Both the position numbers and the translations under genes were made by a program. A DNA stretch of 64,000 nucleotides from Squalus acanthias (lineage: Eukaryota), in assembly GCA_030390025.1 (NCBI GenBank), contig CM059443.1, positions 18,476,001-18,540,000 on the forward strand, in the 5' to 3' direction. Below the pieces are notes generated by a model. That model saw only the letters and a program-made list of their open reading frames with translations, had not been told where the DNA came from and made no database searches. Positions 11,101 through 51,475 of the stretch are shown one piece after another; the first letter of the stretch is position 1; the number at the start of each line of letters is the position of its first letter.

Positions 11101-14100
11101 AAAGAAACCATACTCACTGGTTGCAAGAGGTGATTCATGGTAATCTGAAAATATAAATGGAGTGTGCTGTCACAGAAAGTTATCACAAGTCATCATTCTG
11201 CTCAAATATACAATAATTGATGTCACCCATTAATTGCAACTAATCTGACCAATGTCAAATTTCCAAGGACAGAAGATATCAATGCGAATAGTTTGGCATT
11301 TTAGACTGCACATGCGGGAGTGAGTCTGATATGGAAAACACTTCATTATATTGTCAGATGCTGATGTCAATTAATAACTCCATGCTTGAAGAAGAGCAGA
11401 CAGATAAGTAAATGCAGGAACCTCTTACTAGTCTTCCTTCTCATTGCTTGCTTCATGGGTAGAGGCAAACAGAGTGACTGGTGAGTCTCTCTTGTGAAAA
11501 AAGTTAATCCAAATTCAAAATTTGGCTAAACAGCTCAGAATTGTTTTATTTTGCAACAGATTGTGTAATTGTGTGAAAATATATTTGTTTTCCAATTACT
11601 TTGCTTCATCATTAACCCGATTCATAGTTTGTTGCATTAGATACACGTTAATGTTGTTTGCTGCTCAGAGAGGTATAGTGGTAATATATATCTTTTCCAG
11701 GGTGTGTTTTGTCAGTAAAAAAAAAAGTTGTGCTGTTCATTCTAGGACTCAGTATCCCAGACCAAATAACAGCTAAGCTGATCAATTGCTTCATTGGATA
11801 CTTGGCCTTGCAGGTGCAAGTGGTGCTTTGAACTCTGCGTTAGAAATGTTTCTGTACGCAGCCCAAACTGTAGCACATGTACCATACAAAAAGCAATACT
11901 AAATAATTACTGGATAAGTACCATTTACATAGAGGCTGTAATTGTCCAATGCATATGGCCCCAAGTTAGAAATGTCCTTGGTCTTGTTTTCAAACACATG
12001 ATACACAAGTACTCTGTCGAGCTCCTCAACGGTAGAATCATTTTGGAATGAACAGATTGCAGTCACTGTGGTGCTGTTACCATTTACCGCACTGCAGAAA
12101 AACAAAAGAAGTTTAATATTAGCAGCAAATAATTAGCCACAACATAGTTTGTGAGGTCACTAAGACAAGAATGATTAAGTCGTTGTTGGTCAAATGGTCA
12201 GCAAAGAAACCCTCGGTGGGATTAATATTTCTCTCCGCGACATTTCTTTGCAGGGAATATTCTTTGGGCATTCTGGATAACTGTGAATTTTACATAAAGT
12301 GCAAAACTCTAACAATAAGACTAAAAATGAAGGAAGTTTTAAATATTTAGTATGAATGGTAATATTTCTTACCTGAATGTATCTACTTTGCAACTTGAGA
12401 ATGTTGCATTTATGCTGCTGTTCTTAAACAGGTCATTGAGCTATCGGGAAATAACAGAGTTAGCTTTAGATAGAGGAACAAAAGAAATTATGGTCTAATA
12501 CTCCTCCACAAAACCTACTTGTACAACTCTCTCACCTCATTTGCAATCATAATTGTGTGGTTAGAGGAGTTTGACTGAATTTCTTGGAATGCTGGACTGT
12601 TTACAATAAATGTCACATTATAGTCAATAGGTTTTGATTCCTCGATCGCAGGCTGTGTTACAGTTACAACTGGTATTGCAGCTGTGGAAAGAGAGGAAAG
12701 CATTTTAGTGCACAGAAAGAACAAGAATGAGAATATAGTGAAAGAAGTATTTCCCACTTCTGAAAGGTTAGACTGCTTAACCAGCGCAATGGGGAAATCC
12801 CAAGGCAAGTTGATTCCAATATTTAATTTTTGTTCAATGGACTCCTGCTCCATGATCTGACCAGGAACATATGTCAATCACTCTTGAAACACTTCATTAA
12901 TCTGAAGCTATCCAACCAATTTTTGGTTCTTTGACAAATGCAAGCTGTTTTCTTCAAGCAAATAAATATGTTATCTCAGGTATTTATTAATCAATATTAA
13001 GCCCCAAATAACCTGGTGAACCTATTAATGAAATATTCAGTAAATCATAACACAATCTTTACCAAATCTGATCTAACCAGAATAAGCTTGCTTAGATTGT
13101 CAGTGATGTAATGAATATGCAAACCTTTCCTAAGAAATTGAAAAGAAGCCATACTCACTGGTTACAGGAGGTGATTCATGGTAATCTGAAAATATAAAGA
13201 GATTGTGCTGTCACAGAAAGTTATCACAAATCATCATTCTGCTCAAATATACAATAATTGATGTCACCCATTCATTGCAATTAATCTGACCAATGTCAAA
13301 TCTCCAAGGACAGGAGGTATCAATGCGAATAGTATGGAATTTTAGACTGCACATGCAGGAGTGAGTCTGATATGGAAGAAACTTCAATTATATTGTCAGA
13401 TGCTGCTGTCAATTGATAGCTCCATGCTCGAAGAAGAGCAGACAGATAAGTAAATATAGGAACCTCTTACAAGTCTTCCTTCTCATTGCTTGCTTCATGG
13501 GTAGAGGGAAACAGAATGACTGGTGAGTCTCTCTTGTGAAAGAAGTTAATCCAATTCGAAATTTGGCTAAACAGCTCAGAATTGTTTTATTTTGCAACAG
13601 ATTGTGTAATTGTGTGAAAATGTATTTGTTTTCCTTTTTGTTGCTTCATCATTAACCCGATTCATAGTTTGCTGCCTTAGATACACGTTAATGTTGTTTG
13701 CTGCTCAGAGAGGTATAGTGGTAATATATATCTTTCCCAGGATGAGTGCTATCAGTAAAAAAAAAAGTTGCACTATTCAATCTAGGACTCAGTATCTAAG
13801 ACCAAATAACAGCTAAGCTGATCAATTCCTTCATTGGATACTTTGCCTTGCAGGTGCAACTCGTGCTTTGAACTCTGCGTTAGTAATGTTTCTGTACGCT
13901 GCCCAAACTGTAGCACATGTACCATACAAAGAGCTACACTAAATAATTACTGGATAAGTACCATTTACATAGAGGCTGTAGTTGTCCAATGCATATGGCC
14001 CCAAGTTAGAAATGTCCTTGGTCTTGTTTTCAAACACATGATACACAAGTACTCTGTCGAGCTCCTCAACGGTAGAATCATTTTGGAATGAACAGATTGC

Positions 14101-17100
14101 AGTCACTGTGGTGCTGTTACCATTGACCGCACTGCAGAAAAACAAAAGACGTTTAATATTAGCAGCAAGTAATTTGCATCAACATAGTTTGTTAGGTCAC
14201 TAAGACAAGAATGATTAAGTCGTTGTTGGCCAAATGGTCAGCAAAGAAACCCTCGGTGGGATTAATATTTCTCTCCGCGACATTTCTTTGCTGGGAATAT
14301 TCTTTGGGCATTCTGGATAACTGTGAATTTTACATAAAGTGTAATACTCTAACAATAAGACTAAAAATGAAGGAAGTTTTAAATATTTAGTATGAATGGT
14401 AATATTTCTTACCTGAATGTATCTACTTTGCAACTTGAGAATGTTGCATTTATGCTGCTGTTCTTAAACAGGTCATTGAGCTATCGGGAAATAACAGAGT
14501 TAGCTTTAGATAGAGGAACAAAAGAAATTATGGTCTAATACTCCTCCACAAAACCTACTTGTACAACTCTCTCACCTCATTTGCAATCATAATTGTGTGG
14601 TTAGAGGAGTTTGACTGAATTTCTTGGAATGCTGGACTGTTTACAATAAATGTCACATTATAGTCAATAGGTTTTGGTTCCTCGGTTGGAGTCTGTGTTA
14701 CAGTTACAACTGGTATTGCAGCTGTGGAAAGAGAGGAAAGCATTTTAGTGCACAGAAAGAACAAGAATGAGAATATAGTGAAATAAGTATTTCCCACTTC
14801 TGAAAGTTAGACAGCTTAACCAGCGCAATGGGGAGATCCCAAAGCAAGTTGATTCCAATATTTGATTTTTGTTAAATGGACTCCTGCTCCATGATCTGAC
14901 CAGGACCATATCTCAATCACTCTTGAAACACTTAATTGATCTGAAGCTATCCAACCAGTTTTTGGTTCTTTGACAAATGCAAGCTGTTTTCTTCAAGCAA
15001 ATAAATATGTTACCTCATCTATTTATTATTCAATATCAAGCCCAAAATAACCTGGTGAACCTATTTCTGAAATATTCAGTAAATCATAACGCGATCTTTA
15101 CCTAAACTGATCTAACCAGAATAAGCTTGCTTAGATTGTCAGTGATGTAATGAATAGGCAAATGTTTCCTAAGAAATTGAAAAGAAACCATACTCACTGG
15201 TTACAGGAGGTGATTCATGGTAATCTGAAAATATAAATGGAGTGTGCTGTCACAGAAAGTTATCACAAGTCATCATTCTGCTCAAATATACAATAATTGA
15301 TGTCACCCATTAATTGCAACTAATCTGACCAATGTCAAATTTCCAAGGACAGAAGATATCAATGTGAATAGTTTGGCATTTTAGACTGCACATGCGGGAG
15401 TGAGTCTGATATGGAAAACACTTCAATTATATTGTCAGATGCTGATGTCAATTAATAGCTCCATGCTTGAAGAAGAGCAGACAGATAAGTAAATGCAGGA
15501 ACCTCTTACTAGTCTTCCTTCTCATTGCTTGCTTCATGGGTAGAGGCAAACAGAGTGACTGGTGAGTCTCTCTTGTGAAAAAAGTTAATCCAAATTCAAA
15601 ATTTGGCTAAACAGCTCAGAATTGTTTTATTTTGCAACAGATTGTGTAATTGTGTGAAAATATATTTGTTTTCCAATTACTTTGCTTCATCATTAACCCG
15701 ATTCATAGTTTGTTGCATTAGATACACGTTAATGTTGTTTGCTGCTCAGAGAGGTATAGTGGTAATATATATCTTTTCCAGGGTGTGTTTTGTCAGTAAA
15801 AAAAAAAGTTGTGCTGTTCATTCTAGGACTCAGTATCCCAGACCAAATAACAGCTAAGCTGATCAATTGCTTCATTGGATACTTGGCCTTGCAGGTGCAA
15901 GTGGTGCTTTGAACTCTGCGTTAGAAATGTTTCTGTACGCAGCCCAAACTGTAGCACATGTACCATACAAAAAGCAATACTAAATAATTACTGGATAAGT
16001 ACCATTTACATAGAGGCTGTAGTTGTCCAATGCATATGGCCCCAAGTTAGAAATGTCCTTGGTCTTGTTTTCAAACACATGATACACAAGTACTCTGTCG
16101 AGCTCCTCAACGGTAGAATCATTTTGGAATGAACAGATTGCAGTCACTGTGGTGCTGTTACCATTTACCGCACTGCAGAAAAACAAAAGAAGTTTAATAT
16201 TAGCAGCAAATAATTAGCCACAACATAGTTTGTGAGGTCACTAAGACAAGAATGATTAAGTCGTTGTTGGTCAAATGGTCAGCAAAGAAACCCTCGGTGA
16301 GATTAATATTTCTCTCCGCGACATTTCTTTGCAGGGTATATTCTTTGGGCATTCTGTATAACTGTGAATTTTACATAAAGTGCAAAACTCTAACAATAAG
16401 ACTAAAAATGAAGGAAGTTTTAAATATTTAGTATGAATGGTAATATTTCTTACCTGAATGTATCTACTTTGCAACTTAAAAATGTTGCATTTATGCTGCT
16501 GTTCTTAAACAGGTCATTGAGCTATAGGGAAAAAAAACAACATTGCTTTAGATAGAGAAACAAAGGAAATGATGGTCCAATATTTCTACACAAAACATAT
16601 GAGTACAACTCTCTCACCTCATTTGCAATCATGATTATCTGGTTAGAGGAGTTTGATTGAATTTCTTGGAATGCTGGACTGTTTACAATAAATGTCACAT
16701 TATAGTCAATTGGTTTTGGTTCCTCGGTTGGTGTCTGTGTTACAGTTACAACTGGTATTGCAGCTGTGGAAAGAGAGGAAAGCATTTTAGTGCACAGAAA
16801 GAACAAGAATGAGAATATAGTGAAAGAAGTATTTCCCACTTCTGAAAGGTTAGACTGCTTAACCAGCGCAATGGGGAAATCCCAAGGCAAGTTGATTCCA
16901 ATATTTAATTTTTGTCAAATGGACTCCTGCTCCATGATCTGACCAGGAACATATGTCAATCACTCTTGAAACACTTCATTAATCTGAAGCTATCCAACCA
17001 GTTTTTGGTTCTTTGACAAATGCAAGCTGTTTTCTTCAAGCAAATAAATATGTTATCTCAGGTATTTATTAATCAATATTAAGCCCCAAATAACCTGGTG

Positions 17101-20100
17101 AACCTATTAATGAAATATTCAGTAAATCATAACACAATCTTTACCAAATCTGATCTAACCAGAATAAGCTTGCTTAGATTGTCAGTGATGTAATGAATAT
17201 GCAAACCTTTCCTAAGAAATTGAAAAGAAGCCATACTCACTGGTTACAGGAGGTGATTCATGGTAATCTGAAAATATAAAGAGATTGTGCTGTCACAGAA
17301 AGTTATCACAAATCATCATTCTGCTCAAATATACAATAATTGATGTCACCCATTCATTGCAATTAATCTGACCAATGTCAAATCTCCAAGGACAGGAGGT
17401 ATCAATGCGAATAGTATGGAATTTTAGACTGCACATGCAGGAGTGAGTCTGATATGGAAGAAACTTCAATTATATTGTCAGATGCTGCTGTCAATTGATA
17501 GCTCCATGCTCGAAGAAGAGCAGACAGATTAGTAAATATAGGAACCTCTTACAAGTCTTCCTTCTCATTGCTTGCTTCATGGGTAGAGGGAAACAGAATG
17601 ACTGGTGAGTCTCTCTTGTGAAAGAAGTTAATCCAATTCGAAATTTGGCTAAACAGCTCAGAATTGTTTTATTTTGCAACAGATTGTGTAATTGTGTGAA
17701 AATGTATTTGTTTTCCTTTTTGTTGCTTCATCATTAACCCGATTCATAGTTTGCTGCCTTAGATACACGTTAATGTTGTTTGCTGCTCAGAGAGGTATAG
17801 TGGTAATATATATCTTTTCCAGGGTGTGCTAGCAGTAAAAAAAAAAGTTGCACTATTCAATCTAGGACTCAGTATCTAAGACCAAATAACAGCTAAGCTG
17901 ATCAATTCCTTCATTGGATACTTTGCCTTGCAGGTGCAACTCGTGCTTTGAACTCTGCGTTAGAAATGTTTCTGTACGCTGCCCAAACTGTAGCACATGT
18001 ACCATACAAAGAGCTACACTAAATAATTACTGGATAAGTACCATTTACATAGAGGCTGTAGTTGTCCAATGCATATGGCCCCAAGTTAGAAATGTCTGAT
18101 ATAGAAATGTCCTTGGTCTTGTTTTCAAACACATGATACACAAGTACTCTGTCGAGCTCCTCAACGGTAGAATCATTTTGGAATGAACAGATTGCAGTCA
18201 CTGTGGTGCTGTTACCATTTACCGCACTGCAGAAAAACAAATGAAGTTTAATATTAGCAGCAAATAATTAGCCACAACATAGTTTGTGAGGTCACTAAGA
18301 CAAGAATGATTAAGTCGTTGTTGGTCAAATGGTCAGCAAAGAAACCCTCGGTGGGATTAATATTTCTCTCCGCGACATTTCTTTGCAGGGAATATTCTTT
18401 GGGCATTCTGGATAACTGTGAATTTTACATAAAGTGCAAAACTCTAACAATAAGACTAAAAATGAAGGAAGTTTTAAATATTTAGTATGAATGGTAATAT
18501 TTCTTACCTGAATGTATCTACTTTGCAACTTGAGAATGTTGCATTTATGCTGCTGTTCTTAAACAGGTCATTGAGCTATTGGGAAATAACAGAGTTAGCT
18601 TTAGATAGAGGAACAAAAGAAATTATGGTCTAATACTCCTCCACAAAACCTACTTGTACAACTCTCTCACCTCATTTGCAATCATAATTGTGTGGTTAGA
18701 GGAGTTTGACTGAATTTCTTGGAATGCTGGACTGTTTACAATAAATGTCACATTATAGTCAATAGGTTTTGGTTCCTCGGTCGGAGTCTGTGTTACAGTT
18801 ACAACTGGTATTGCAGCTGTGGAAAGAGAGGAAAGCATTTTAGTGCACAGAAAGAACAAGAATGAGAATATAGTGAAAGAAGTATTTCCCACTTCTGAAA
18901 AGTTAGACAGCTTAACTAGCGCAATGGGGAAATCCCAAAGCAAGTTGATTCCAATATTTGATTTTTGTTAAATGGACTCCTGCTCCATGATCTGACCAGG
19001 ACCATATGTCAATCACTCTTGAAACACTTAATTGATCTGAAGCTATCCAACCAGTTTTTGGTTCTTTAACAAATGCAAGCTGTTTTCTTCAAGCAAATAA
19101 ATATGTTACCTCATCTATTTATTATTCAATATTAAGCCCCAAATAACCTGGTTAACCTATTTATGAAATATTCAATAAATCATAACGCAATCTTTACCTA
19201 AACTGACCTAACCAGAATAAGCTTGCTTAGATTGTCAGTGATGTAATGAATAGGCAAATGTTTCCTAAGAAATTGAAAAGAAACCATACTCACTGGTTAC
19301 AGGAGGTGATTCATGGTAATCTGAAAATATAAATGGAGTGTGCTGTCACAGAAAGTTATCACAAGTCATCATTCTGCTCAAATATACAATAATTGATGTC
19401 ACCCATTAATTGCAACTAATCTAAACAATGTCAAATCTCCTAGGACAGAGGTATCAATGCGAATAGTTCAGAATTTTGGACTGCATATGCTGGAGTGAGT
19501 CTGATATGGAAAACACTTCAATTATTTTGTCAGATGCTGATGTCAATTGAGAGCACCATGCTCGAAGATGAGCATACCGAAAAGTAAATACAGGAACCTC
19601 TTATAGAGGAACCTCTTATATAAAAACAGAAAATACTGGAGATACTCAGCAGGTCAGGCAGCATCTGTGAAGCGAGAAACAGAGTTAACGTTTCAGGTCG
19701 ATGACCTTTCGTCAGAACTGGAAAAAAGCAGGAAATGGAACAGATTTTTAAGCAAGTGTAGGGGCTGGGAAAGGGGGGAGGGGATGAAAGAACAAAAGGG
19801 AAGGTCTGTGATAGGATAGAAGGCAGGGGAGGTTAAGAGACATTAAGAGATATTCAAGGCAAAAGGAGATGGTAATGGGGCAGGTAAGAAACAAAGGATG
19901 GCTCTAGATGAAGTGTAAATTGCGCTGGCAGAATGAAAGACAGCTGCCATGTGGGAAAGAAGAAAAGACACAAACAAAAGCTGTGGATAAAAAATATATA
20001 TAGGATATGGGTCGAGGTTATGATCTGAAATTGTTGAACTCTATGTTGAGTCCAAAAGGCTGTAAAGTGCCTAATCGAAAGATGAGATGCTGTTCTTCAA

Positions 20101-23100
20101 GCTTGCGCTGAGCTTCCGTGGAACAATGCAAGAGGCCGAGGACGGTGAGGTCTGAGTGGGAGTGGAGCGGAGAATTAAAGTGACAGGCGACAGGAAGCTC
20201 CGGGTCCCCCTTACGAACTGAACGGAGGTGTTCCGCAAAGCAGTCAGGAACCTCTTACTAGTCTTCCTTCTCATTGCTTGCTTCATGGGTAGAGGGAAAC
20301 ACAGTAACTGGAGAGTCTCTCTTGTGAAAGAAGTTAATCCAAATTTGAAATTTGGCTAAGCAGCTCAGAATTGTTTTATTTTGCAACAGATTGTGTAATT
20401 GTGTGAAAATTTATTTGTTTTCCTTTTACTTTGCTTCATCATTAACCCGATTCATAGTTTGTTGCATTAGATACACGTTAATACATAGAAACATAGAATC
20501 TAGGAGCAGGAGTAGGCCATTCGGCCCGTCGAGCCTGCTCCACCATTCAATACGATCATGGCTGATCATCCAAATCCAGCACCCTGTCCCTGCTTTAATC
20601 CCCACAGTACACATATCCCACCCTACCCCCGTAACCCCACATATTTAATTCCCCCTAACATATCCCATCCTATCCCCATAACCCCACATATTTAATCCCC
20701 CCTAACACTAAGGGTCAATTTTATCATAGCCAAATCAACCTAACCCGCACATTTTTGGACTGTGGGAGGAAACCGGAGCACCCGGAGGAAACCCACGCAG
20801 ACACGGGGAGAATGTGCAAACTCCACACAGACAGTCACCCGAGGTCAGATTCGAACCCGAGTCCCTGGCGCTGTGAGGCACCAGTGCTAACCACTATGCC
20901 ACCGTGTTGCCCGTGTTGTTTGTTGTTTGCTGCTCAGAGAGGTATAGTGGTAATATATATCTTTTCCAGGGTGTGTGTTATCAATAAAAGAAAAGTTGCT
21001 CTGTTCATTCTAGGACTCAGTGTCCAAGACCAAATAACAGCTGAGCTGATCAATTGCTTCATTGGATACTTGGCCTTGCAGGTGCAAGTGGCGCTTTAAA
21101 CTCTGCATTAGAAATGATTCCGTATGCTGCCCATACTGTAGCACATGTACCATACAAAGAGCGACACTAAATAATTACTGGATATGTACCATTTACATAG
21201 AGGCTGTAGTTGTCCAATGCATATGGCCCCAAGTTAGAAATGTCCTTGGTCTTGTTTTCAAACACATGATACACAAGTACTCTGTCGAGCTCCTCAACGG
21301 TAGAATCATTTTGGAATGAACAGATTGCAGTCACTGTGGTGCTGTTACCATTTATCGCACTGCAGAAAAACAAAAGAAGTTTAATATTAGCTGCAAATAA
21401 TTAGCCACAACATAGTTTGTGAGGTCACTAAGACAAGAATGATTAAGTCGTTGTTGGCCAAATGGTCAGCAAAGAAACCCTCGGTGGGATTAATATTTCT
21501 CTCCGCGACATTTCTTTGCAGGGAGTATTCTTTGGGCATTCTGGATAACTGTGAATTTTACATAAAGTGCAATGCTCTAACAATAAGATACAAAATGAAG
21601 GAAGTTTTCAATATTTAGTATGAATGGTAATATTTCTTACCTGAATGTATCTACTTTGCAACTTGAAAATGTTGCATTTATGCTGCTGTTCTTAAACAGG
21701 TCATTGAGCTATAGGGAAAAAAAACAACATTGCTTTAGATACAGAAACAAAGGAAATGATGGTCTAATACTCCTCCACAAAACATACTTGTACAACTCTC
21801 TCACCTCATTTGCAATCATGATTATCTGGTTAGAGGAGTTTGATTGGATTTCTTGGAATGCTGGACTGTTTACAATGAATGTCACATTATAGTCAATAGG
21901 TTTTGGTTCCTCGGTTGGAGTCTGTGTTACAGTTACAATTGGTATTGCAGCTGTGGAAAGAGAGGAAAGCATTTTAGTGCACAGAAAGAACAAGAATGAG
22001 AATATAGTGAAAGAAGCATTTCCCACTTCTGAAAGGTTAGACAGCTTAACCAGCGCAATGGGAAAATCCAAAAGCAAATTGATTCCAATATTTGATTTTT
22101 GTTAAATGGACTCCTGCTCCATGATCTAACCAGGACCATATGTCAATCACTCTTGAAACACTTAATTGATCTGAAGCTATCCAACCAATTTTTGGTTCTT
22201 TAACAAATGCAAGCTGTTTTCTTCAAGCAAATAAATATTTTACCTCATCTATTTATTATTCAATATCAAGCCCAAAATAACCTGGTGAACCTATTTATGA
22301 AATATTCAATAAATCATATCGCAATCTTTACCTAAACTGATCTAACCAGAATAAGCTTGCTTAGATTGTCAGTGATGTAATGAATAGGCAATTGTTTCCT
22401 AAGAAATTGAAAAGAAACCATACTCACTCGTTACAGGAGGTGATTCATGGTAATCTGAAAATATAAATGGAGTGTGCTGTCACAGAAAGTTATCACAAGT
22501 CATCATTCTGCTCAAATATACAATAATTGATGTCACCCATTAATTGCAACTAATCTAAACAATGTCAAATCTCCTAGGACAGAGGTATCAATGCAAATAG
22601 TTCAGAATTTTGGACTGCATATGCGGGAGTGAGTCTGATATGGAAGAAACCTCAATTATATTGTAAGATGCTGCTGTCAATTAATAGCTCCATGCTCGAA
22701 GAAGAGCAGACAGATAAGTAAATAGAGGAACCTCTTACTAGACTTACTTCTCATTGCTTGCTTCATGGGTAGAGGCAAACAGAGTAACTGGTGAGTCTCT
22801 CTTGTGAAAGAAGTTAATCCAAATTCGAATTTTGGCTAAACAGCTCAGAATTGTTTTCTTTTGCAACAGATTGTGTAACTGTGTGAAAATATATTTGTTT
22901 TCCTTTTACATTGCTTCATCATTAACCTGATTCATAGTTTGTTGCATTAGATACACGTTTTGTTGTTTGCTGCTCAGAGAGGTATAGTGGTAATATATAT
23001 CTTTTCCAGGGTGTGTTTTGTCAGTAAAAAAAAAGTTGTGCTGTTCATTCTAGGACTCAGTATCCCAGACCAAATAACATCTAAGCTGATCAATTGCTTC

Positions 23101-26100
23101 ATTGGATACTTGGCCTTGCAGGTGCAAGTGGTGCTTTGAACTCTGCGATAGAAATGTTTCTGTACGCTGCCCAAACTGTAGAACATGTAACATACAAAGA
23201 GCTACACTAAATAATTACTGGATAAGTACCATTTACATAGAGGCTGCAGTTGTCCAATGCATATGGCCCCAAGTTAGAAATGTCCTTGGTCTTGTTTTCA
23301 AACACATGATACACAAGTACTCTGTCGAGCTCCTCAACGGTAGAATCATTTTGGAATGAACAGATTGCAGTCACTGTAGTGCTGTTACCATTTACCGCAC
23401 TGCAGAAAAACAAAAGAAGTTTAATATTAACAGCAAATAATTTGCATCAACATAGTTTGTTCGGTCACTAAGACAAGAATGATTAAGTCGTTGTTGGTCA
23501 AATGGTCAGCAAAGAAACCCTCGGTGGGATTAATATTTCTCTCCACGACATTTCTTTGCAGGGAATATTCTTTGGGCATTCTGGATAACTGTGAATTTTA
23601 CATAAAGTGCAATACTCTAACAATAAGATACAAAATGAAGGAAGTTTTAAATATTTAGAATGAATGGTAATATTTCTTACCTGAATGTATCTACTTTGCA
23701 ACTTGAGAATGTTGCATTTATGCTGCTGTTCTTAAACAGGTCATTGAGCTATAGGGAAATAACAAAGTTAGCTTTAGATACAGAAACAAAGGAAATGATG
23801 GTCCAGTACATCTCCACAAAACATACTTGTACAACCTCTTACCTCATTTGCAATCATGATTGTCTGATTAGAGGAGTTTGATTGAATTCCCTTGAATGCT
23901 GGACTGTTTACAATGAATGTCACATTATAGTCAATAGGTTTTGGTTCCTCGGTTGGAGTCTGTGTTACAGTTACAACTGGTATTGCAGCTGTGGAAAGAG
24001 AGGAAAGCATTTTAGTGCACAGAAAGTACAAGAATGAGAAAATAGTGAAAGAATTATTTCCCACTTCTGAAAGGTTAGACAGCTTAACCACTGCAATGGG
24101 GAAATCCCAAAGCAAGTTGTTTGCAATACTTGATTTTTGTTAAAAGGACTCCTGCTCCATGATCTGACCAGCAACATATGTCAATCACTCTTGAAACACT
24201 TAATTAATCTGAAGCTATCCAACCAGTTTTTGGTTCTTTGACAAATGCAGGCTGTTTTCTTCAAGCAGCTAAAGATGTTCAACATAGAAACATAGAAAAA
24301 TAGGAGCAGAAGTAGGCCATTCGGCCCTTTGAGCATGCTCCGCCATTCAATATGATCATGTCTGATTCTCTATCTCAATACCATATTCCCGCTCTCTCCC
24401 CATACCCCTTGATGCCTTTTGTGTCAAGAAATCTATCTATCTCCTTCTTATATATATTCAGTGACTTGGCCTCCACAGCCTTCTGTGGTAGAGAATTCCA
24501 GAGGTTCACCACCCTCTGAGTGAAGAGATTTCTCCTCATCTCAGTCCTAAATATCCTAACCCTTATCCTGAGACTGGGACACCTCATTCTAGACCCCCCA
24601 GCCAGGAAAAACATCCTCCCTGCATCCAGTCTGTCTAGCCCTGTCAGAATTTTATACGTTTCAATGAGATCCCCTTTCATTCTTCCAAACTCTAGTGAAT
24701 ACAGGTCTAGTTGACCCAATCTCTCCTCATACTCTGGTAGATGTAGTGTATTTGGATTTTCAGAAGGCCTTCGATAAGATCCCACACAAGAGGTTGGTGA
24801 ACAAAATTAGTGCGCATGGATTTGAGGGTAATATACTAGCATGGATTGAGTTTTGGTTAACAGACAGAAAACAAAGAGTAGGGATAAATGGGTCTTTTTC
24901 AGGATGACAGGCTGTGACTAGTGGGGTACCGCAAGGATCGGTGCTTGGGACCCAGCTATTCACAATCTATATCAATGATTTGGATGAGGGGACTAAATGT
25001 AACAATTCCAAATTTGCTGATGATACAAAGCTAGGTGGCAGTGGCAGTTGTGAAGAGGCTTCAAGGGGATCTCGACAGGCTCATGAGTGGGCGAGATCAT
25101 GGCAGATGGAATATAATGTGGATAAATGTGAAGTTATCCACTTTGGTAGGAAAAACAGAAAGGCAGAGTATTTCCTAAATGGTGAAAGATTGGGTGTCCT
25201 TGTACATGAGTCACTGAAAGTGAATGTGCAGGTGCAACAAGCCATTAGGAAGGCAAATGGTATGCTGGCCTTCATTACAAGAGGATTTGAGTACAGGAGT
25301 AAAGAAGTCTTACTCCAATTATATAGGGCCTTGGTGAGACCACACCTGGAGTACTTTATACAATTTTGGTCTCTTTACCTAAGGAAGGATATACTTGCCA
25401 TAGAGGGAGTGCAACGAAGGTTCACGAGATTGATTCCTGGATGGCGGGACTGTCGTATGAGAAGAGATTGAGTAAACTAGGCCTGTATTCTCTTGAATTC
25501 AGAAGAATGAGAGGGGATCTCATTGAAACATACAAAATTCTTACAGGGCTTGATAGGGTGGATGCTGGGAGAATGTTTCCCTTGGCTGGGACATCTAGAA
25601 CCAGGGGGCCACAGCCTCAGGATAAAGGGTAGGCCATTCAGGACTGAGATGAGAAGACATTTCTTCACACAGAGGGTGGTGAAGCTTTGGAATTCTCTCC
25701 CCCAGAGGGCTGTGGAGGCTCAGTCATTGGGTATATTCAAAACAGAAGTCGATAGATTTCTGACTAGTAAGGGCGTCAAGAGATATGGCGATAGGCCCGG
25801 TGAATGAAGTTGAGGCAGAAGATCAGCCATGATCTCATTGAATGGCGGAGCAGGCTCGATGGGCTGAATAGCCTACTCCTGCTCCTATTTCTTGTGTTCT
25901 TATGGTCATACGACAGTCCTGCCATCCCAGGAATCAGTCTGGTGAACCTTCGCTGCACTCCCTCTATGGCAAGTATATCCTTTCTTAGGTAAGGAGACCA
26001 AAACTGCACACAGTACTCCAGATGTGGTCTCACCAAGGCCCTGTATAACTGTAGTAAGACATTGTTGTTCCTGTACTCAAATCCTCTTGCAATGAAGGCC

Positions 26101-29100
26101 AACATACCATTTGCCTTCCGAACTGCTTGCTGCACCTGCATGTTTGCTTTCAGTGACTGGTGTACAAGGACACCCAAATCCCTCTGTACATCAACATTTC
26201 CCAATCTATCACCTTTTAAATAATACTCTGCCTTTCTGTTTTTCCTACCGAAGTGGATAACTTCACATTTATCCACGTTGTATTGCATCTGCCATGTATT
26301 TGCCAACTCACTCAACTTGTCTAAATCGTCTTGAAGCCTCTTTGCATCCTCTTCACAACTCAAAATGTTATCTCATGTATTTATTAATCAATATCAAGCC
26401 CAAAATAACCTGGTAAACCTATTAATGAAATATTCAGTAAATCATAACACAATCTTTACCAAATCTGATCTAACCAGAATAAGCTTGCTTAGATTGTCAG
26501 TGATGTAATGAATAGGCAAACGTTTCCTAAGAAACTGAAAAGAAACCATACTCACTGGTTACAGGAGGTGATTCATGGTAATCTGAAAATATAAAGAGAT
26601 TGTGCTGTCACAGAAATTGATCACAAGTCATCATTCTGCTCAAATATACAATAATTGATGTCACCCATTAATTGCAACTAATCTGACCAATGTCAAATTT
26701 CTAAGGACAGAAGATATCAATGTGAGTAGTTTGGCATTTTAGACTGCACATGTGGGAGTGAGTCTGATATGGAAAACACTTCATTATATTGTCAGATGCT
26801 GATGTCAATTAATAACTCCATGCTTGAAGAAGAGCAGACAGATAAGTAAATGCAGGAACCTCTTACTAGTCTTCCTTCTCATTGCTTGCTTCATGGGTAG
26901 AGGCAAACAGAGTGACTGGTGAGTCTCTCTTGTGAAAAAAGTTAATCCAAATTCAAAATTTGGCTAAACAGCTCAGAATTGTTTTATTTTGCAACAGATT
27001 GTGTAATTGTGTGAAAATATATTTGTTTTCCAATTACTTTGCTTCATCATTAACCCGATTCATAGTTTGTTGCATTAGATACACGTTAATGTTGTTTGCT
27101 GCTCAGAGAGGTATAGTGGTAATATATATCTTTTCCAGGGTGTGTTTTGTCAGTAAAAAAAAAAGTTGTGCTGTTCATTCTAGGACTCAGTATCCCAGAC
27201 CAAATAACAGCTAAGCTGATCAATTGCTTCATTGGATACTTGGCCTTGCAGGTGCAAGTGGTGCTTTGAACTCTGCGTTAGAAATGTTTCTGTACGCAGC
27301 CCAAACTGTAGCACATGTACCATACAAAAAGCAATACTAAATAATTACTGGATAAGTACCATTTACATAGAGGCTGTAGTTGTCCAATGCATATGGCCCC
27401 AAGTTAGAAATGTCCTTGGTCTTGTTTTCAAACACATGATACACAAGTACTCTGTCGAGCTCCTCAACGGTAGAATCATTTTGGAATGAACAGATTGCAG
27501 TCACTGTGGTGCTGTTACCATTTACCGCACTGCAGAAAAACAAAAGAAGTTTAATATTAGCAGCAAATAATTAGCCACAACATAGTTTGTGAGGTCACTA
27601 AGACAAGAATGATTAAGTCGTTGTTGGTCAAATGGTCAGCAAAGAAACCCTCGGTGAGATTAATATTTCTCTCCGCGACATTTCTTTGCAGGGAATATTC
27701 TTTGGGCATTCTGTATAACTGTGAATTTTACATAAAGTGCAAAACTCTAACAATAAGACTAAAAATGAAGGAAGTTTTAAATATTTAGTATGAATGGTAA
27801 TATTTCTTACCTGAATGTATCTACTTTGCAACTTAAAAATGTTGCATTTATGCTGCTGTTCTTAAACAGGTCATTGAGCTATAGGGAAAAAAAACAACAT
27901 TGCTTTAGATACAGAAACAAAGGAAATGATGGTCCAATACTTCTCCACAAAACATATGAGTACAACTCTCTCACCTCATTTGCAATCATGATTATCTGGT
28001 TAGAGGAGTTTGATTGAATTTCTTGGAATGCTGGACTGTTTACAATAAATGTCACATTATAGTCAATTGGTTTTGGTTCCTCGGTTGGAGTCTGTGTTAC
28101 AGTTACAACTGGTATTGCAGCTGTGGAAAGAGAGGAAAGCATTTTAGTGCACAGAAAGAACAAGAATGAGAATATAGTGAAAGAAGTATTTCCCACTTCT
28201 GAAAGGTTAGACTGCTTAACCAGCGCAATGGGGAAATCCCAAGGCAAGTTGATTCCAATATTTAATTTTTGTCAAATGGACTCCTGCTCCATGATCTGAC
28301 CAGGAACATATGTCAATCACTCTTGAAACACTTCATTAATCTGAAGCTATCCAACCAGTTTTTGGTTCTTTGACAAATGCAAGCTGTTTTCTTCAAGCAA
28401 ATAAATATGTTATCTCATGTATTTATTAATCAATATTAAGCCCCAAATAACCTGGTGAACCTATTAATGAAATATTCAGTAAATCATAACACAATCTTTA
28501 CCAAATCTGATCTAACCAGAATAAGCTTGCTTAGATTGTCAGTGATGTAATGAATATGCAAACCTTTCCTAAGAAATTGAAAAGAAGCCATACTCACTGG
28601 TTACAGGAGGTGATTCATGGTAATCTGAAAATATAAAGAGATTGTGCTGTCACAGAAAGTTATCACAAGTCATCATTCTGCTCAAATATACAATAATTGA
28701 TGTCACCCATTCATTGCAATTAATCTGACCAATGTCAAATCTCCAAGGACAGGAGGTATCAATGCGAATAGTATGGAATTTTAGACTGCACATGCAGGAG
28801 TGAGTCTGATATGGAAGAAACTTCAATTATATTGTCAGATGCTGCTGTCAATTGATAGCTCCATGCTCGAAGAAGAGCAGACAGATTAGTAAATATAGGA
28901 ACCTCTTACAAGTCTTCCTTCTCATTGCTTGCTTCATGGGTAGAGGGAAACAGAATGACTGGTGAGTCTCTCTTGTGAAAGAAGTTAATCCAATTCGAAA
29001 TTTGGCTAAACAGCTCAGAATTGTTTTATTTTGCAACAGATTGTGTAATTGTGTGAAAATGTATTTGTTTTCCTTTTTGTTGCTTCATCATTAACCCGAT

Positions 29101-32100
29101 TCATAGTTTGCTGTCTTAGATACACGTTAATGTTGTTTGCTGCTCAGAGAGGTATAGTGGTAATATATATCTTTTCCAGGATGTGTGCTATCAGTAAAAA
29201 AAAAAGTTGCACTATTCAATCTAGGACTCAGTATCTAAGACCAAATAACAGCTGAGCTGATCAATTCCTTCATTGGATACTTTGCCTTGCAGGTGCAACT
29301 CGTGCTTTGAACTCTGCGTTAGAAATGTTTCTGTACGCTGCCCAAACTGTAGCACATGTACCATACAAAGAGCTACACTAAATAATTACTGGATAAGTAC
29401 CATTTACATAGAGGCTGTAGTTGTCCAATGCATATGGCCCCAAGTTAGAAATGGCCTTGGTCTTGTTTTCAAACACATGATACACAAGTACTCTGTCGAG
29501 CTCCTCAACGGTAGAATCATTTTGGAATGAACAGATTGCAGTCACTGTGGTGCTGTTACCATTTACCGCACTGCAGAAAAACAAAAGAAGTTTAATATTA
29601 GCAGCAAGTAATTTGCATCAACATAGTTTGTGAGGTCACTAAGACAAGAATGATTAAGTCGTTGTTGGCCAAATGGTCAGCAAAGAAACCCTCGGTGGGA
29701 TTAATATTTCTCTCCGCGACATTTCTTTGCTGGGAATATTCTTTGGGCATTCTGGATAACTGTGAATTTTACATAAAGTGTAATACTCTAACAATAAGAC
29801 TAAAAATGAAGGAAGTTTTAAATATTTAGTATGAATGGTAATATTTCTTACCTGAATGTATCTACTTTGCACCTTGAGAATGTTGCATTTATGCTGCTGT
29901 TCTTAAACAGGTCATTGAGCTATCGGGAAATAACAGAGTTAGCTTTAGATAGAGAAACAAAAGAAATTATGGTCTAATATACCTCCACAAAACCTACTTG
30001 TACAACTCTCTCACCTCATTTGCAATCATAATTGTCTGGTTAGAGGAGTTTGACTGAATTTCTTGGAATGCTGGACTGTTTACAATGAATGTCACATTAT
30101 AGTCAATAGGTTTTGGTTCCTCGGTTGGAGTCTGTGTTACAGTTACAACTGGTATTGCAGCTGTGGAAAGAGAGGAAAGCATTTTAGTGCACAGAAAGAA
30201 CAAGAATGAGAATATAGTGAAAGAAGTATTTCCCACTTCTGAAAAGCTAGAGAGCTTAACTAGCGCAATGGGGAAATCCCAAAGCAAGTTGATTCCAATA
30301 TTTGATTTTCGTTAAATGGACTCCTGCTCCATGATCTGACCAGGACCATATGTCAATCACTCTTGAAACACTTAATTGATCTGAAGCTATCCAACCAGTT
30401 TTTGGTTCTTTAACAAATGCAAGCTGTTTTCTTCAAGCAAATAAATATGTTACCTCATCTATTTATTATTCAATATCAAGCCCAAATTAACCTGGTTAAC
30501 CTATTTATGAAATATTCAATAAATCATAACGCAATCTTTACCTAAACTGACCTAACCAGAATAAGCTTGCTTAGATTGTCAGTGATGTAATGAATAGGCA
30601 AATGTTTCCTAAGAAATTGAAAAGAAACCATACTCACTGGTTACAAGAGGTGATTCATGGTAATCTGAAAATATAAATGGAGTGTGCTGTCACAGAAAGT
30701 TATCACAAGTCATCATTCTGCTCAAATATACAATAATTGATGTCACCCATTAATTGCAACTAATCTAAACAATGTCAAATCTCTTAGGACAGAGGTATCA
30801 ATGCGAATAGTTCAGAATTTTGGACTGCATATGTTGGAGTGAGTCTGATATGGAAAACACTTCAATTATTTTGTCAGATGCTGATGTCAATTGATAGCTC
30901 CATGCTCGAAGATGAGCAGACAGATAAGTAAATGCAGGAACCTCTTATAGAGGAACCTCTTATATAAAAACAGAAAATACTGGAGATACTCAGCAGGTCT
31001 GGCAGTATCTGTGAAGCGAGAAACAGAGTTAACGTTTCAGGTCGATGACCTTTCGTCAGAACTGGAAAAAAGCAGGAAATGGAACAGATTTTTAAGCAAG
31101 TGTAGGGGCTGGGAAAGGGGGAAGGGGATGAAAGAACAAAAGGGAAGGTCTGTGATAGGATAGAAGGCAGGGGAGGTTAAGAGACATTAAGAGATATTAA
31201 AGGCAAAAGGAGATGGTAATGGGACAGGTTAAGGAACAAAGGATGGCTCTAGATGACGTGTAAATTGCGCTGGCAGAATGAAAGACAGCTGCCATGTGGG
31301 AAAGAAGAAAAGACACAAACAAAAGCTGTGGATAAAAAATATATATGGGATATGGGCCGAGGTTATGATCTGAAATTGTTGAACTCTATTTTGAGTCCAG
31401 AAGGCTGTAAAGTGCCTAATCGAAAGATGAGATGCTGTTCTTCAAGCTTACGCTGAGCTTCAGTGGATTTATGCAAGAGGCTGAGAAAGGTAAGGTCTGA
31501 GTGGGAGTGGAGCGGAGAATTAAAGTGACAGGCGACAGGAAGCTCGGGGTCCCCCTTACGAACTGAACGGAGGTGTTCCACAAAGCAGTCAGGAACCTCT
31601 TACTAGTCTTCCTTCTCATTGCTTGCTTCATGGGTAGAGGGAAACACAGTAACTGGTGAGTCTCTCTTGTGAAAGAAGTTAATCCAAATTCGAAATTTGG
31701 CTAAGCAGCTCAGAATTGTTTTCTTTTGCAACAGATTGTGTAATTGTGTGAAAATGTATTTGTTTTCCTTTTACTTTGCTTCATCATTAACCCGATTCAT
31801 AGTTTGTTGCATTAGATACACGTTAATACATAGAAACATAGAATCTAGGAGCAGGAGTAGGCCATTCGGCCCGTCGAGCCTGCTCCATCATTCAATACGA
31901 TCATGGCTGATCATCCAAATCCAGCACCCTGTCCCTGCTTTAATCCCCACAGTACACATATCTCACCCTACCCCCGTAACCCCACGTATTTAATTCCCCC
32001 TAACATATCCCATCCTATCCCCATAACCCCACATATTTAATCCCCCCTAACACTAAGGGTCAATTTTATCATAGCCAAATCAACCTAACCCACACATTTT

Positions 32101-35100
32101 TGGACTGTGGGAGGAAACCGGAGCACCCGGAGGAACCCCACGCAGACACGGGGAGAATGTGCAAACTCCACACAGACAGTCACCCGAGGTCAGATTCGAA
32201 CCCGAGTCCCTGGCGCTGTGAGGCACCAGTGCTAACCACTATGCCACCGTGTTGCCCGTGTTGTTTGTTGTTTGCTGCTCAAAGAGGTATAGTGGTAATA
32301 TATATCTTTTCCAGGGTGTGTGTTATCAATAAAAGAAAAGTTGCTCTGTTCATTCTAGGACTCAGTGTCCAAGACCAAATAACAGCTGAGCTGATCAATT
32401 GCTTCATTGGATACTTGGCCTTGCAGGTGCAAGTGGCGCTTTAAACTCTGCATTAGAAATGATTCCGTATGCTGCCCATACTGTAGCACATGTACCATAC
32501 AAAGAGCGACACTAAATAATTACTGGATAAGTACCATTTACATAGAGGCTGTAGTTGTCCAATGCATATGGCCCCAAGTTAGAAATGGCCTTGGTCTTGT
32601 TTTCAAACACATGATACACAAGTACTCTGTCGAGCTCCTCAACGGTAGAATCATTTTGGAATGAACAGATTGCAGTCACTGTGGTGCTGTTACCATTTAT
32701 CGCACTGCAGAAAAACAAAAGAAGTTTAATATTAGCTGCAAATAATTTGCCACAACATAGTTTGTGAGGTCACTAAGACAAGAATGATTAAGTCGTTGTT
32801 GGCCAAATGGTCAGCAAAGAAACCCTCGGTGGGATTAATATTTCTCTCCGCGACATTTCTTTGCAGGGAGTATTCTTTGGGCATTCTGGATAACTGTGAA
32901 TTTTACATAAAGTGCAATGCTCTAACAATAAGATACAAAATGAAGGAAGTTTTCAATATTTAGTATGAATGGTAATATTTCTTACCTGAATGTATCTACT
33001 TTGCAACTTGAAAATGTTGCATTTATGCTGCTGTTCTTAAACAGGTCATTGAGCTATAGGGAAAAAAAACAACATTGCTTTAGATACAGAAACAAAGGAA
33101 ATGATGGTCTAATACTCCTCCACAAAACATACTTGTACAACTCTCTCACCTCATTTGCAATCATGATTATCTGGTTAGAGGAGTTTGATTGGATTTCTTG
33201 GAATGCTGGACTGTTTACAATGAATGTCACATTATAGTCAATAGGTTTTGGTTCCTCGGTTGGAGTCTGTGTTACAGTTACAATTGGTATTGCAGCTGTG
33301 GAAAGAGAGGAAAGCATTTTAGTGCACAGAAAGAACAAGAATGAGAATATAGTGAAAGAAGCATTTCCCACTTCTGAAAGGTTAGACAGCTTAACCAGCG
33401 CAATGGGAAAATCCAAAAGCAAATTGATTCCAATATTTGATTTTTGTTAAATGGACTCCTGCTCCATGATCTAACCAGGACCATATGTCAATCACTCTTG
33501 AAACACTTAATTGATCTGAAGCTATCCAACCAGTTTTTGGTTCTTTAACAAATGCAAGCTGTTTTCTTCAAGCAAATAAATATTTTACCTCATCTATTTA
33601 TTATTCAATATCAAGCCCAAAATAACCTGGTGAACCTATTTATGAAATATTCAATAAATCATATCGCAATCTTTACCTAAACTGATCTAACCAGAATAAG
33701 CTTGCTTAGATTGTCAGTGCTGTAATGAATAGGCAATTGTTTCCTAAGAAATTGAAAAGAAACCATACTCACTCGTTACAGGAGGTGATTCATGGTAATC
33801 TGAAAATATAAATGGAGTGTGCTGTCACAGAAAGTTATCACAAGTCATCAATCTGCTCAAATATACAATAATTGATGTCACCCATTAATTGCAACTAATC
33901 TAAACAATGTCAAATCTCCTAGGACAGAAGGTATCAATGTGAATAGTTTGGAATTTTGGACTGCATATGCTGGAGTGAGTCTGATATGGAAGAAACCTCA
34001 ATTATATTGTCAGATGCTGCTGTCAATTAATAGCTCCATGCTCGAAGAAGAGCAGACAGATAAGTAAATAGAGGAACCTCTTACTAGACTTACTTCTCAT
34101 TGCTTGCTTCATGGGTAGAGGCAAACAGAGTAACTGGTGAGTCTCTCTTGTGAAAGAAGTTAATCCAAATTCGAATTTTGGCGAAACAGCTCAGAATTGT
34201 TTTCTTTTGCAACAGATTGTGTAACTGTGTGAAAATATATTTGTTTTCCTTTTACATTGCTTCATCATTAACCTGATTCATAGTTTGTTGCATTAGATAC
34301 ACGTTTTGTTGTTTGCTGCTCAGAGAGGTATAGTGGTAATATATATCTTTTCCAGGGTGTGTTTTGTCAGTAAACAAAAAGTTGTGCTGTTCATTCTAGG
34401 ACTCAGTATCCCAGACCAAATAACAGCTAAGCTGATCAACTGCTTCATTGGATACTTGGCCTTGCAGGTGCAAGTGGTGCTTTGAACTCTGCGATAGAAA
34501 TGTTTCTGTACGCTGCCCAAACTGTAGAACATGTAACATACAAAGAGCTACACTAAATAATTACTGGATAAGTACCATTTACATAGAGGCTGCAGTTGTC
34601 CAATGCATATGGCCCCAAGTTAGAAATGTCCTTGGTCTTGTTTTCAAACACATGATACACAAGTACTCTGTCGAGCTCCTCAACGGTAGAATCATTTTGG
34701 AATGAACAGATTGCAGTCACTGTGGTGCTGTTACCATTGACCGCACTGCAGAAAAACAAAAGAAGTTTAATATTAACAGCAAATAATTTGCATCAACATA
34801 GTTTGTTCGGTCACTAAGACAAGAATGATTAAGTCGTTGTTGGTCAATAGGTCAGCAAAGAAACCCTCGGTGGGATTAATATTTCTCTCCACGACATTTC
34901 TTTGCAGGGAATATTCTTTGGGCATTCTGGATAACTGTGAACTTTACATAAAGTGCAATACTCTAACAATAAGATACAAAATGAAGGAAGTTTTAAATAT
35001 TTAGAATGAATGGTAATATTTCTTACCTGAATGTATCTACTTTGCAACTTGAGAATGTTGCATTTATGCTGCTGTTCTTAAACAGGTCATTGAGCTATAG

Positions 35101-51437: not shown

Positions 51438-51475
<38 letters not shown>

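What the first reader, a model, noticed from the sequence alone, without database searches (positions are those of the whole stretch)
19683..31063. Two identical dimer-type hammerhead ribozyme motifs in sense within one mucin pre-mRNA
Seen: AGUU-CUGACGA-AAGGUCAUCGACCU-GAAAC-GUU-AACU at 19683-19719 and 31027-31063, both on the gene strand and identical, although the host fragments differ elsewhere. Known: Penelope-like elements carry minimal hammerheads whose palindromic stem III (here ACGU) forms efficiently only as a dimer. Inferred: the 11.35-kb duplication placed two partners in one transcript. Dimeric cleavage in the two equivalent phase-1 C-D introns would bracket exactly four SEA units whose loss keeps the frame, so it could influence splicing or mucin length. 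The GUU triplet and extra A may weaken activity, and introns may be spliced before the copies meet.
Basis: partly seen in the sequence, partly recalled or inferred. Interest (0 to 1): 0.7.

Follow-up and report, generated by a model that had tools for sequence, protein, structure and literature searches.

The report
Duplicated Penelope ribozyme hitchhiker in mucin
The two identical hammerhead-like motifs are one fragment of a very common jumping gene (a Penelope-like element; 6,187 exact copies of the motif in this genome) that landed once in a mucin intron and was copied by a local duplication, so they are likely inert passengers, not a switch for mucin splicing.

Summary
Observation confirmed: identical 37-nt minimal-hammerhead motifs lie at 19683-19719 and 31027-31063 on the minus strand, in sense within phase-1 introns of a MUC16-like SEA-repeat mucin, four 411-nt units apart. 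The interpretation mostly fails. Each motif is the 3' terminal repeat of a 5'-truncated Neptune-type Penelope-like retroelement (627 bp, 12-bp target duplication). The exact 37-mer occurs 6,187 times genome-wide, the motif class about 46,000-62,000 times. One insertion was copied by an 11.36-kb tandem duplication; identity over 37 nt is expected by chance (36% of windows in the insertion). Any whole-unit skip keeps frame, so frame preservation says nothing. 19 of 100 listed copies have a same-strand neighbour this close. In six other long gene spans, intact copies were 5 sense vs 5 antisense (low power). Published minimal hammerheads do not cut as monomers and cut weakly as dimers; one Penelope hammerhead needs the element's protein. 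No Rfam model matched; cleavage and RNA effects are untested. The scan has met this element family before elsewhere in this genome. Ordinary transposon passenger; interest low.

The parts
19683..19719 (-). Minimal hammerhead motif, downstream copy (stem I 4 bp, stem II 5 bp + AUC loop, extra A after A9, palindromic ACGU, GUU triplet; predicted cut 19687/19686)
31027..31063 (-). Minimal hammerhead motif, upstream copy, identical (predicted cut 31031/31030)
19619..20245 (-). 5'-truncated Penelope-like element, copy 1 (627 bp): endonuclease tail, 3' UTR/pLTR with hammerhead, short tail
30963..31590 (-). 5'-truncated Penelope-like element, copy 2 (628 bp), 96.3% identical to copy 1, same insertion site
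20018..20245 (-). Last ~75 codons of the element ORF (C-terminal part of the GIY-YIG endonuclease), nearly identical to the end of a 955-aa RT-EN ORF in L023
19607..19618 (-). 12-bp target-site duplication TAAGAGGTTCCT, 3' side of copy 1 (partner 20246-20257; for copy 2: 30951-30962 and 31591-31602); a further 15-bp tandem duplication follows on the 3' side
19321..21189 (-). Host phase-1 intron (1,869 nt; sister introns about 776 nt) holding copy 1 and a second, SINE-like insertion
30665..32534 (-). Host phase-1 intron (1,870 nt) holding copy 2 and the same second insertion
14990..37700 (.). Tandem duplication with period about 11.35 kb (four SEA units); 158 differing of 11,369 columns, patchy
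9884..51245 (-). Array of 16 four-exon SEA units (27+146+68+170 = 411 nt, 137 aa) of a MUC16-like mucin gene, open throughout

Best explanation
The motif is the minimal hammerhead in the 3' terminal repeat of a 5'-truncated Neptune-type Penelope-like retroelement that inserted once into a mucin intron and was copied by an 11.36-kb tandem duplication, and it is likely an inert passenger that leaves with the spliced intron. Shown: the element anatomy, the target duplication, the empty sites in sister units, the copy numbers and the duplication. Inferred: the motif is kept by selection on the element lineage, where it would help process element RNA as a dimer or with the element's protein. Also inferred: in the mucin pre-mRNA each copy folds into an inactive hairpin, cleavage is too slow to compete with splicing, and mucin length is set by DNA-level unit gain and loss.
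For: The insertion ends in the GIY-YIG tail of a family with an intact 955-aa RT-EN ORF. Both copies share one site and a 12-bp TSD; 12 of the 13 other equivalent introns carry the single empty 12-mer. The two copies are each other's closest of six loci compared (96.3% vs at most 94.2%), and units 11.35 kb apart pair in the tree with support 100/99 (three pairs). Exact 37-mer: 6,187 copies; strict class 46,332; loose class 62,655 vs control 921. 19 of the first 100 listed copies have a same-strand neighbour within 11,344 bp. In six other long gene spans (1.565 Mb), intact copies were 5 sense / 5 antisense and all copies 25 / 33; one span holds two intact sense copies 69 kb apart. The motif is 86-100% identical across subfamilies whose UTRs are 61-63% identical. 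The predicted monomer fold pairs core U4-G8 with the cleavage strand; the stem I+II fold has probability 0.002; the active dimer is 13 kcal/mol above the best dimer fold. Literature: a minimal hammerhead showed no monomer cleavage and low dimer/trimer cleavage (PMC4209133). The anole PLE hammerhead cuts only with PLE protein, and no RNA-seq reads ended at its site (PMC11167929). Slow intronic ribozymes did not affect splicing (Fong 2009 as cited in PMC10919898).
Against: Inertness is inferred, not measured: no cleavage assay and no RNA reads. Both copies keep every core base and both stems and lie in sense. The orientation test is weak (95% interval of the sense fraction 0.19-0.81 for intact copies, 0.30-0.57 for all), so a 2:1 antisense bias is not excluded, and the gene spans were inferred from same-strand Pfam exon hits. 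A preprint reports that hammerhead retrozymes are depleted from Xenopus introns. Natural PLE partners sit about 3 kb apart, so 11 kb is only about 7-fold worse by ideal-chain scaling (my estimate). At 3.5-4.1 kb/min (mammalian rate) the copies are made about 3 min apart, so they may coexist. The folding model lacks tertiary and Mg2+ terms and had no positive control.
Confidence: 0.9

Rival explanations
1. Low-level, unselected cleavage: the copies occasionally cut, as a dimer with each other or with abundant element RNA in trans, or helped by element protein, and slightly lower mucin mRNA output without any specific isoform or adaptive role.
For: Core and stems are intact and in sense. The family is young and abundant, with intact ORFs. 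Protein-assisted cleavage is shown for another PLE. Fast intronic ribozymes abort splicing (Fong 2009 as cited).
Against: The motif is only 363 nt from the 3' splice site, so cleavage would need to be very fast. No sense-strand depletion was seen, though n is small. The predicted fold is inactive.
Confidence: 0.07
2. One reading: the two copies form a double hammerhead across 11.3 kb, both cut, and the outer pieces are joined by splicing or an RNA ligase, deleting four SEA units in frame and tuning mucin length.
For: The geometry is possible: a nested double-hammerhead pairing can be drawn, the 16 exons between total 1,644 nt, and ligase joining of ribozyme-cut ends is known for retrozymes (PMC7229834) and for engineered StitchR (PMC12955351).
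Against: Frame is kept by any whole-unit skip. Identity of the copies is chance-level. The element sits in only 2 of 15 equivalent introns and came in late. Thousands of equivalent pairs are expected genome-wide. The active dimer is predicted 10-20 kcal/mol less stable than two folded monomers. Stem II closes A-U, not G-C.
Confidence: 0.02
3. The motif is not a ribozyme even for the element: it is a conserved promoter, protein-binding or RT-initiation signal that retains a hammerhead-like consensus.
For: No Rfam match. No two-sided compensatory change in 29 distinct copies. G10.1-C11.1 is absent in 99 of 100 listed copies. In the anole PLE, cleavage was dispensable for insertion in vitro.
Against: All core bases (CUGAnGA, GAAA, UH) plus both stems and the palindrome match the published min-HHR. 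Variation falls in N7, loop 2 and A-U/G-U swaps. Core mutants abolished cleavage in the anole PLE.
Confidence: 0.2

Closest known systems
Minimal hammerheads (min-HHR) in the pLTRs of metazoan Penelope-like elements (Cervera & De la Pena 2014, PMC4209133)
   Same: Type I, no stem III of its own, palindromic 15.2/16.2, 4-bp stem I, extra nucleotide after A9, located in the 3' pLTR, mostly single motifs from 5'-truncated elements, thousands per genome.
   Different: Stem II is 5 bp and closes A-U (G-U in sister copies), not G10.1-C11.1. GUU is the family norm. The copy number (46,000-62,000) exceeds the 4,000-9,000 that paper gives for coelacanth and Xenopus. No shark term was found in the one supplement file searched.
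Neptune clade of endonuclease-bearing Penelope-like elements (as defined in PMC8557442)
   Same: [quoted passage not shown]
   Different: The window copies hold only the last ~75 codons. The clade was assigned by motifs, not by a tree, and Nematis shares the linker.
Anole Poseidon element PAc hammerhead (PMC11167929)
   Same: pLTR hammerhead close to the ORF start of a vertebrate PLE.
   Different: Different clade. PAc cleavage was tested and needs the element protein; here it is untested.
Domesticated intronic ribozymes: CPEB3 (HDV-like) and RECK/C10orf118 hammerheads
   Same: Self-cleaving motif in sense within a host intron.
   Different: Those are single-locus, self-sufficient and active (PMC10919898, PMC10761166). 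This is a recent repeat-family copy with no monomer fold and no sign of host-level conservation.
Non-LTR retrozymes of amphibians (dimeric type I hammerheads, PMC7229834)
   Same: Dimer-dependent type I hammerheads at very high copy number.
   Different: Retrozyme partners are 170-400 nt apart in non-coding tandem repeats. Here they are 11.3 kb apart, carry ORF remnants and were paired by a host duplication.

Membership tests
min-HHR of metazoan PLEs | Conserved core CUGAnGA...GAAA...UH | tested here: met
min-HHR of metazoan PLEs | No stem III/loop 3; palindromic 15.1-16.1 (ACGU) | tested here: met
   a nested double-hammerhead pairing can be drawn
min-HHR of metazoan PLEs | Short stem I (4-5 bp) and an extra nucleotide between 9 and 10.1 | tested here: met
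   AGUU/AACU, 91% of cells paired; extra A seen in the sequence; features
min-HHR of metazoan PLEs | Highly conserved G10.1-C11.1 pair (a consensus trait, not part of the search descriptor) | tested here: not met
   A-U here; A-U 17, G-U 11, other 1 of 29 distinct copies; G-C in 1 of 100 listed
min-HHR of metazoan PLEs | Located in the pLTR of a PLE | tested here: met
   about 300 nt downstream of the ORF stop in the window and in L023-L025; 5' repeat of 63 bp in L023
min-HHR of metazoan PLEs | Compensatory covariation in stems | tested here: inconclusive
   0 pairs with two-sided change, only one-sided A-U/G-U and G-C/G-U changes, in 29 closely related copies; shuffles do as well
min-HHR of metazoan PLEs | Self-cleavage as a dimer or with protein | not testable with these tools
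   needs an in vitro assay; folding is only suggestive
Rfam hammerhead families (Hammerhead_1 and others) | Match to a covariance model | tested here: not met
   no hammerhead hit at E<=1 in the window or E<=10 in 131 nt; not filed as an Rfam member
Neptune-type EN+ Penelope-like element | Single ORF with RT followed by GIY-YIG endonuclease | tested here: met
   955-aa ORF in relative L023; RVT_1 E 1.5e-5, below cut-off; GIY-YIG read from motifs, no Pfam hit
Neptune-type EN+ Penelope-like element | CX2-5CxxC linker and CCHH motif | tested here: met
   CTRRRCNTC and VYCIRCSRCGLLYIG; definition
Neptune-type EN+ Penelope-like element | RT phylogeny groups with Neptune, not Nematis | not tested
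Domesticated regulatory intronic ribozyme | Conserved at the host locus beyond neutral expectation | tested here: not met
   2 of 15 equivalent introns; identity at chance level; orthologous loci in other species not examined
Domesticated regulatory intronic ribozyme | Cleavage in cells that changes host mRNA | not tested
   no RNA reads were examined

The most novel reading that the evidence does not exclude
A host duplication turned one transposon remnant into a natural cut-and-rejoin device: the two copies pair across 11.3 kb as a double hammerhead, perhaps chaperoned by Penelope protein, release four SEA units as a circle, and an RtcB-type ligase rejoins the outer ends into one spliceable intron, giving a shorter in-frame mucin. 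The same would then apply to thousands of sense pairs in this genome.
Probability: 0.02. Interest if true: 0.8.

Novelty: new member of a known kind. Interest (0 to 1): 0.1.

Why it matters
As it stands it matters little: it is a correct catch of a motif class described in 2014, in an ordinary duplicated insertion. The side value is at genome scale. This genome holds roughly 46,000-62,000 core-intact minimal hammerheads, so a genome-wide sense/antisense count in introns plus cyclic-phosphate sequencing would directly test whether such motifs ever cut host pre-mRNAs, which the 2014 paper left open. If the novel case held, it would be a natural ribozyme-driven exon-block deletion.

Tried and rejected
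Rfam scans gave no hammerhead hit; the weak miRNA/snoRNA hits are far below gathering scores. Pfam found nothing on the 78-aa endonuclease tail. A PDB sequence search with the 955-aa ORF found nothing. Covariation count: no two-sided changes, uninformative for close copies. Sequencing-run search: no RNA holder listed, which is no evidence either way; no reads or contigs were laid on the locus, so expression, junctions, presence of the insertion in other individuals and independent support for the duplication remain open. An assembly artefact for the duplication was considered: it is unlikely given 158 differences and 3.6% divergence inside the insertion, but it was not excluded with reads. Independent insertion of the two copies was rejected (same site, same TSD, same extra 15-bp duplication, same neighbouring insertion). 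Absolute Kd and fraction-active figures were not used, because the model lacks tertiary and Mg2+ terms. Exon regexes missed two or three exons and gave false stops; corrected. Literature searches for a shark PLE hammerhead returned 0 papers (Penelope-like + Neptune + shark; ribozyme + Penelope + cartilaginous fish + hammerhead ribozyme). These cover only the held library, and supplement file 1 of PMC4209133 and all bioRxiv supplements could not be seen, so a listing of this family there is not excluded.
Full report
Observation. The two 37-nt motifs are present at 19683-19719 and 31027-31063, are identical, and read as a hammerhead on the minus strand. The host gene is also on the minus strand. 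Sixteen four-exon units (27+146+68+170 = 411 nt) join into 2,186 codons with no stop (63 exons). One exon matches Pfam SEA below cut-off and MUC16 SEA structures at E 5e-8. A 7,416-codon open frame with 63% Thr/Ser/Pro lies upstream, and further SEA exons run to about 12 kb left of the window. So this is a MUC16-like mucin. Each motif sits in the phase-1 intron after the 170-nt exon, 363 nt from the 3' splice site; 16 exons totalling 1,644 nt lie between the two. No Rfam hammerhead model matched.

What the motif belongs to. The motif lies in a 627-bp insertion (19619-20245; copy 2 at 30963-31590) flanked by a 12-bp target duplication. Twelve of the 13 other equivalent introns carry the single empty 12-mer. 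The insertion starts with about 75 codons that match the C-terminus of a 955-aa ORF elsewhere in the genome (L023). That ORF has a weak RVT_1 match, a GIY-YIG core with internal cysteines and a CX4CxxC linker, the marks of the Neptune/Nematis clades of Penelope-like elements (PMC8557442, passages). I call it Neptune-type on motifs only. The hammerhead lies about 300 nt past the stop codon, in the 3' pseudo-LTR, as published for 5'-truncated elements (PMC4209133, parts 1-2 of 4 of the text and passages of supplement file 2). Against four members of another subfamily the motif is 37/37, 35/37, 35/37 and 32/37 identical while the UTR before it is 61-63% identical. I infer selection in the element lineage.

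How common. The exact 37-mer occurs 6,187 times in the 3.7-Gb genome, a 32-mer 8,006 times, a stricter class pattern 46,332 times and a loose core pattern 62,655 times against 921 for the reversed control. Of the first 100 listed class copies (first 8.6 Mb of contig C1, not a random sample), 19 have a same-strand neighbour within 11,344 bp; a Poisson model gives 13%. GUU is the family norm (94 of those 100; 6 GUC). The extra A is a published hallmark of minimal hammerheads. The pair closing stem II is A-U or G-U in 99 of 100, where the published consensus has G10.1-C11.1. Among 29 distinct copies, 95% of stem cells pair, but no pair shows a two-sided change and shuffles do as well, so covariation is not shown.

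Why two, and why identical. An 11.36-kb tandem duplication of four units (158 differing of 11,369 columns) copied the whole intron, with the element, its target duplication and a second insertion. The two element copies are 96.3% identical, closer than to any of four other genomic loci compared (at most 94.2%), and three unit pairs 11.35 kb apart are sisters in a unit tree at 100/99 support. An older related block at 40474-45574 lacks the insertion. Identity over 37 nt is expected: 71% of such windows across the duplication and 36% inside the insertion are identical; 0.963^37 = 0.25. Frame preservation is automatic, since every unit is a multiple of three and every equivalent intron has the same phase.

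Would it cut? Not tested. Nearest-neighbour folding pairs core bases U4-G8 with the cleavage strand. The stem I+II fold has probability 0.002. A double hammerhead can be drawn, but at -9.7 kcal/mol against -22.9 for the best two-strand fold, and 10-20 kcal/mol above two folded monomers depending on flanks. This model omits tertiary and Mg2+ terms and had no positive control, so it is only suggestive. In print, a schistosome minimal hammerhead showed no monomer cleavage and low dimer/trimer cleavage. The anole PLE hammerhead cut only with element protein, and no RNA-seq reads began or ended at its site (PMC11167929, passages). Slow intronic ribozymes had no effect on splicing and fast ones gave unspliced RNA (Fong 2009, not seen; as cited in PMC10919898, passages). 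GUC and AUC are reported as the best triplets, but a GUU ribozyme was the most active in one study (PMC9217987, passages), so GUU does not rule out activity.

Test of tolerance in host pre-mRNA. I took six long spans marked by same-strand Sushi or Spectrin exon hits (1.565 Mb; chosen for length, with the tandem Sushi array on C17 and short spans left out) and classed all 58 terminal-repeat copies found. Intact: 5 sense, 5 antisense. Core present: 8 and 10. All: 25 and 33. One span holds two intact sense copies 69 kb apart. This shows that sense copies, and more than one per gene, occur elsewhere. It has low power (95% intervals 0.19-0.81 and 0.30-0.57), and the spans are inferred, not annotated.

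Points against my reading. Both copies are intact and in sense. Natural PLE partners lie about 3 kb apart, so 11 kb is not absurd. At a mammalian rate of 3.5-4.1 kb/min the copies are transcribed about 3 min apart and may coexist. A preprint reports depletion of hammerhead retrozymes from Xenopus introns (10.64898/2026.07.22.740005, part 1 of 5 and passages). Ligase joining of ribozyme-cut ends is real for retrozymes (PMC7229834, passages) and for engineered StitchR (PMC12955351, passages). No RNA data were examined.

Comparison and novelty. It works like, and by most features is, a PLE minimal hammerhead; it fails the G10.1-C11.1 consensus trait and the Rfam models. It does not meet the marks of domesticated intronic ribozymes such as CPEB3 or RECK (passages of PMC10761166). 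Two searches found no paper on this family in cartilaginous fish. That the host is a shark-like fish is my inference from recalled repeat types and from earlier scan notes, not from a call. Earlier notes of this scan describe the same element family at other places in this genome; none covers this locus or the splicing idea.

Verdict. New member of a known kind; most likely a neutral passenger (0.9). Interest 0.1.

Noticed in passing
window 1-64000 (minus strand), extending about 12 kb left and 13 kb right: MUC16-like mucin: a 22-kb Thr/Ser/Pro frame (7,416 codons) followed by 16 near-identical four-exon SEA units and about seven more divergent ones; best PDB hits are MUC16 SEA domains. A search for MUC16 + SEA domain + shark + evolution listed only two MUC1 reviews. 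An independent SEA expansion in a non-mammalian MUC16-like gene may interest mucin specialists more than the ribozyme does.
   Followed up: partly
window 14990-37700: Divergence across the 11.36-kb duplication is patchy (0 to 27 differences per 500 nt), which suggests gene conversion or unequal crossing-over among units.
   Followed up: partly
window 20483-20920 and about 31828-32265: A second, ~440-bp insertion in the same two introns, with a tRNA-like head; it resembles the HE1 SINE of elasmobranchs (name recalled, not tested).
   Followed up: no
window 19592-19618 and 30936-30962: An extra 15-bp tandem duplication beside the 3' target duplication of the Penelope insertion, present in both copies.
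   Followed up: no
window 23989-26555, 35335-37901, 43545-47632: Enlarged introns holding rearranged LINE reverse-transcriptase fragments (RVT_1 hits), inherited through the higher-order duplications.
   Followed up: no
window 18042-18226 and 9884-10050: One SEA exon carries an in-frame 15-nt internal duplication (ISDIS) and another a 3-nt deletion; the frame is kept in both.
   Followed up: no
L050/L051, L070 and several pairs in L073-L229: Head-to-head inverted terminal-repeat pairs that join at or next to the hammerhead itself, so inversion or template switching may favour this hairpin.
   Followed up: no
L023:3391-6258: Intact 955-aa Neptune-type ORF whose start codon lies in the tail just downstream of where the hammerhead would be; only 63 bp of the 5' repeat remain, without the 5' hammerhead.
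   Followed up: partly
G000:C1043:170001-457000 (L151-L170, L207-L210, L225-L229): This 287-kb spectrin gene span held only 1 terminal-repeat copy, against 21 in a 380-kb span on C16: strong regional variation in element density.
   Followed up: no
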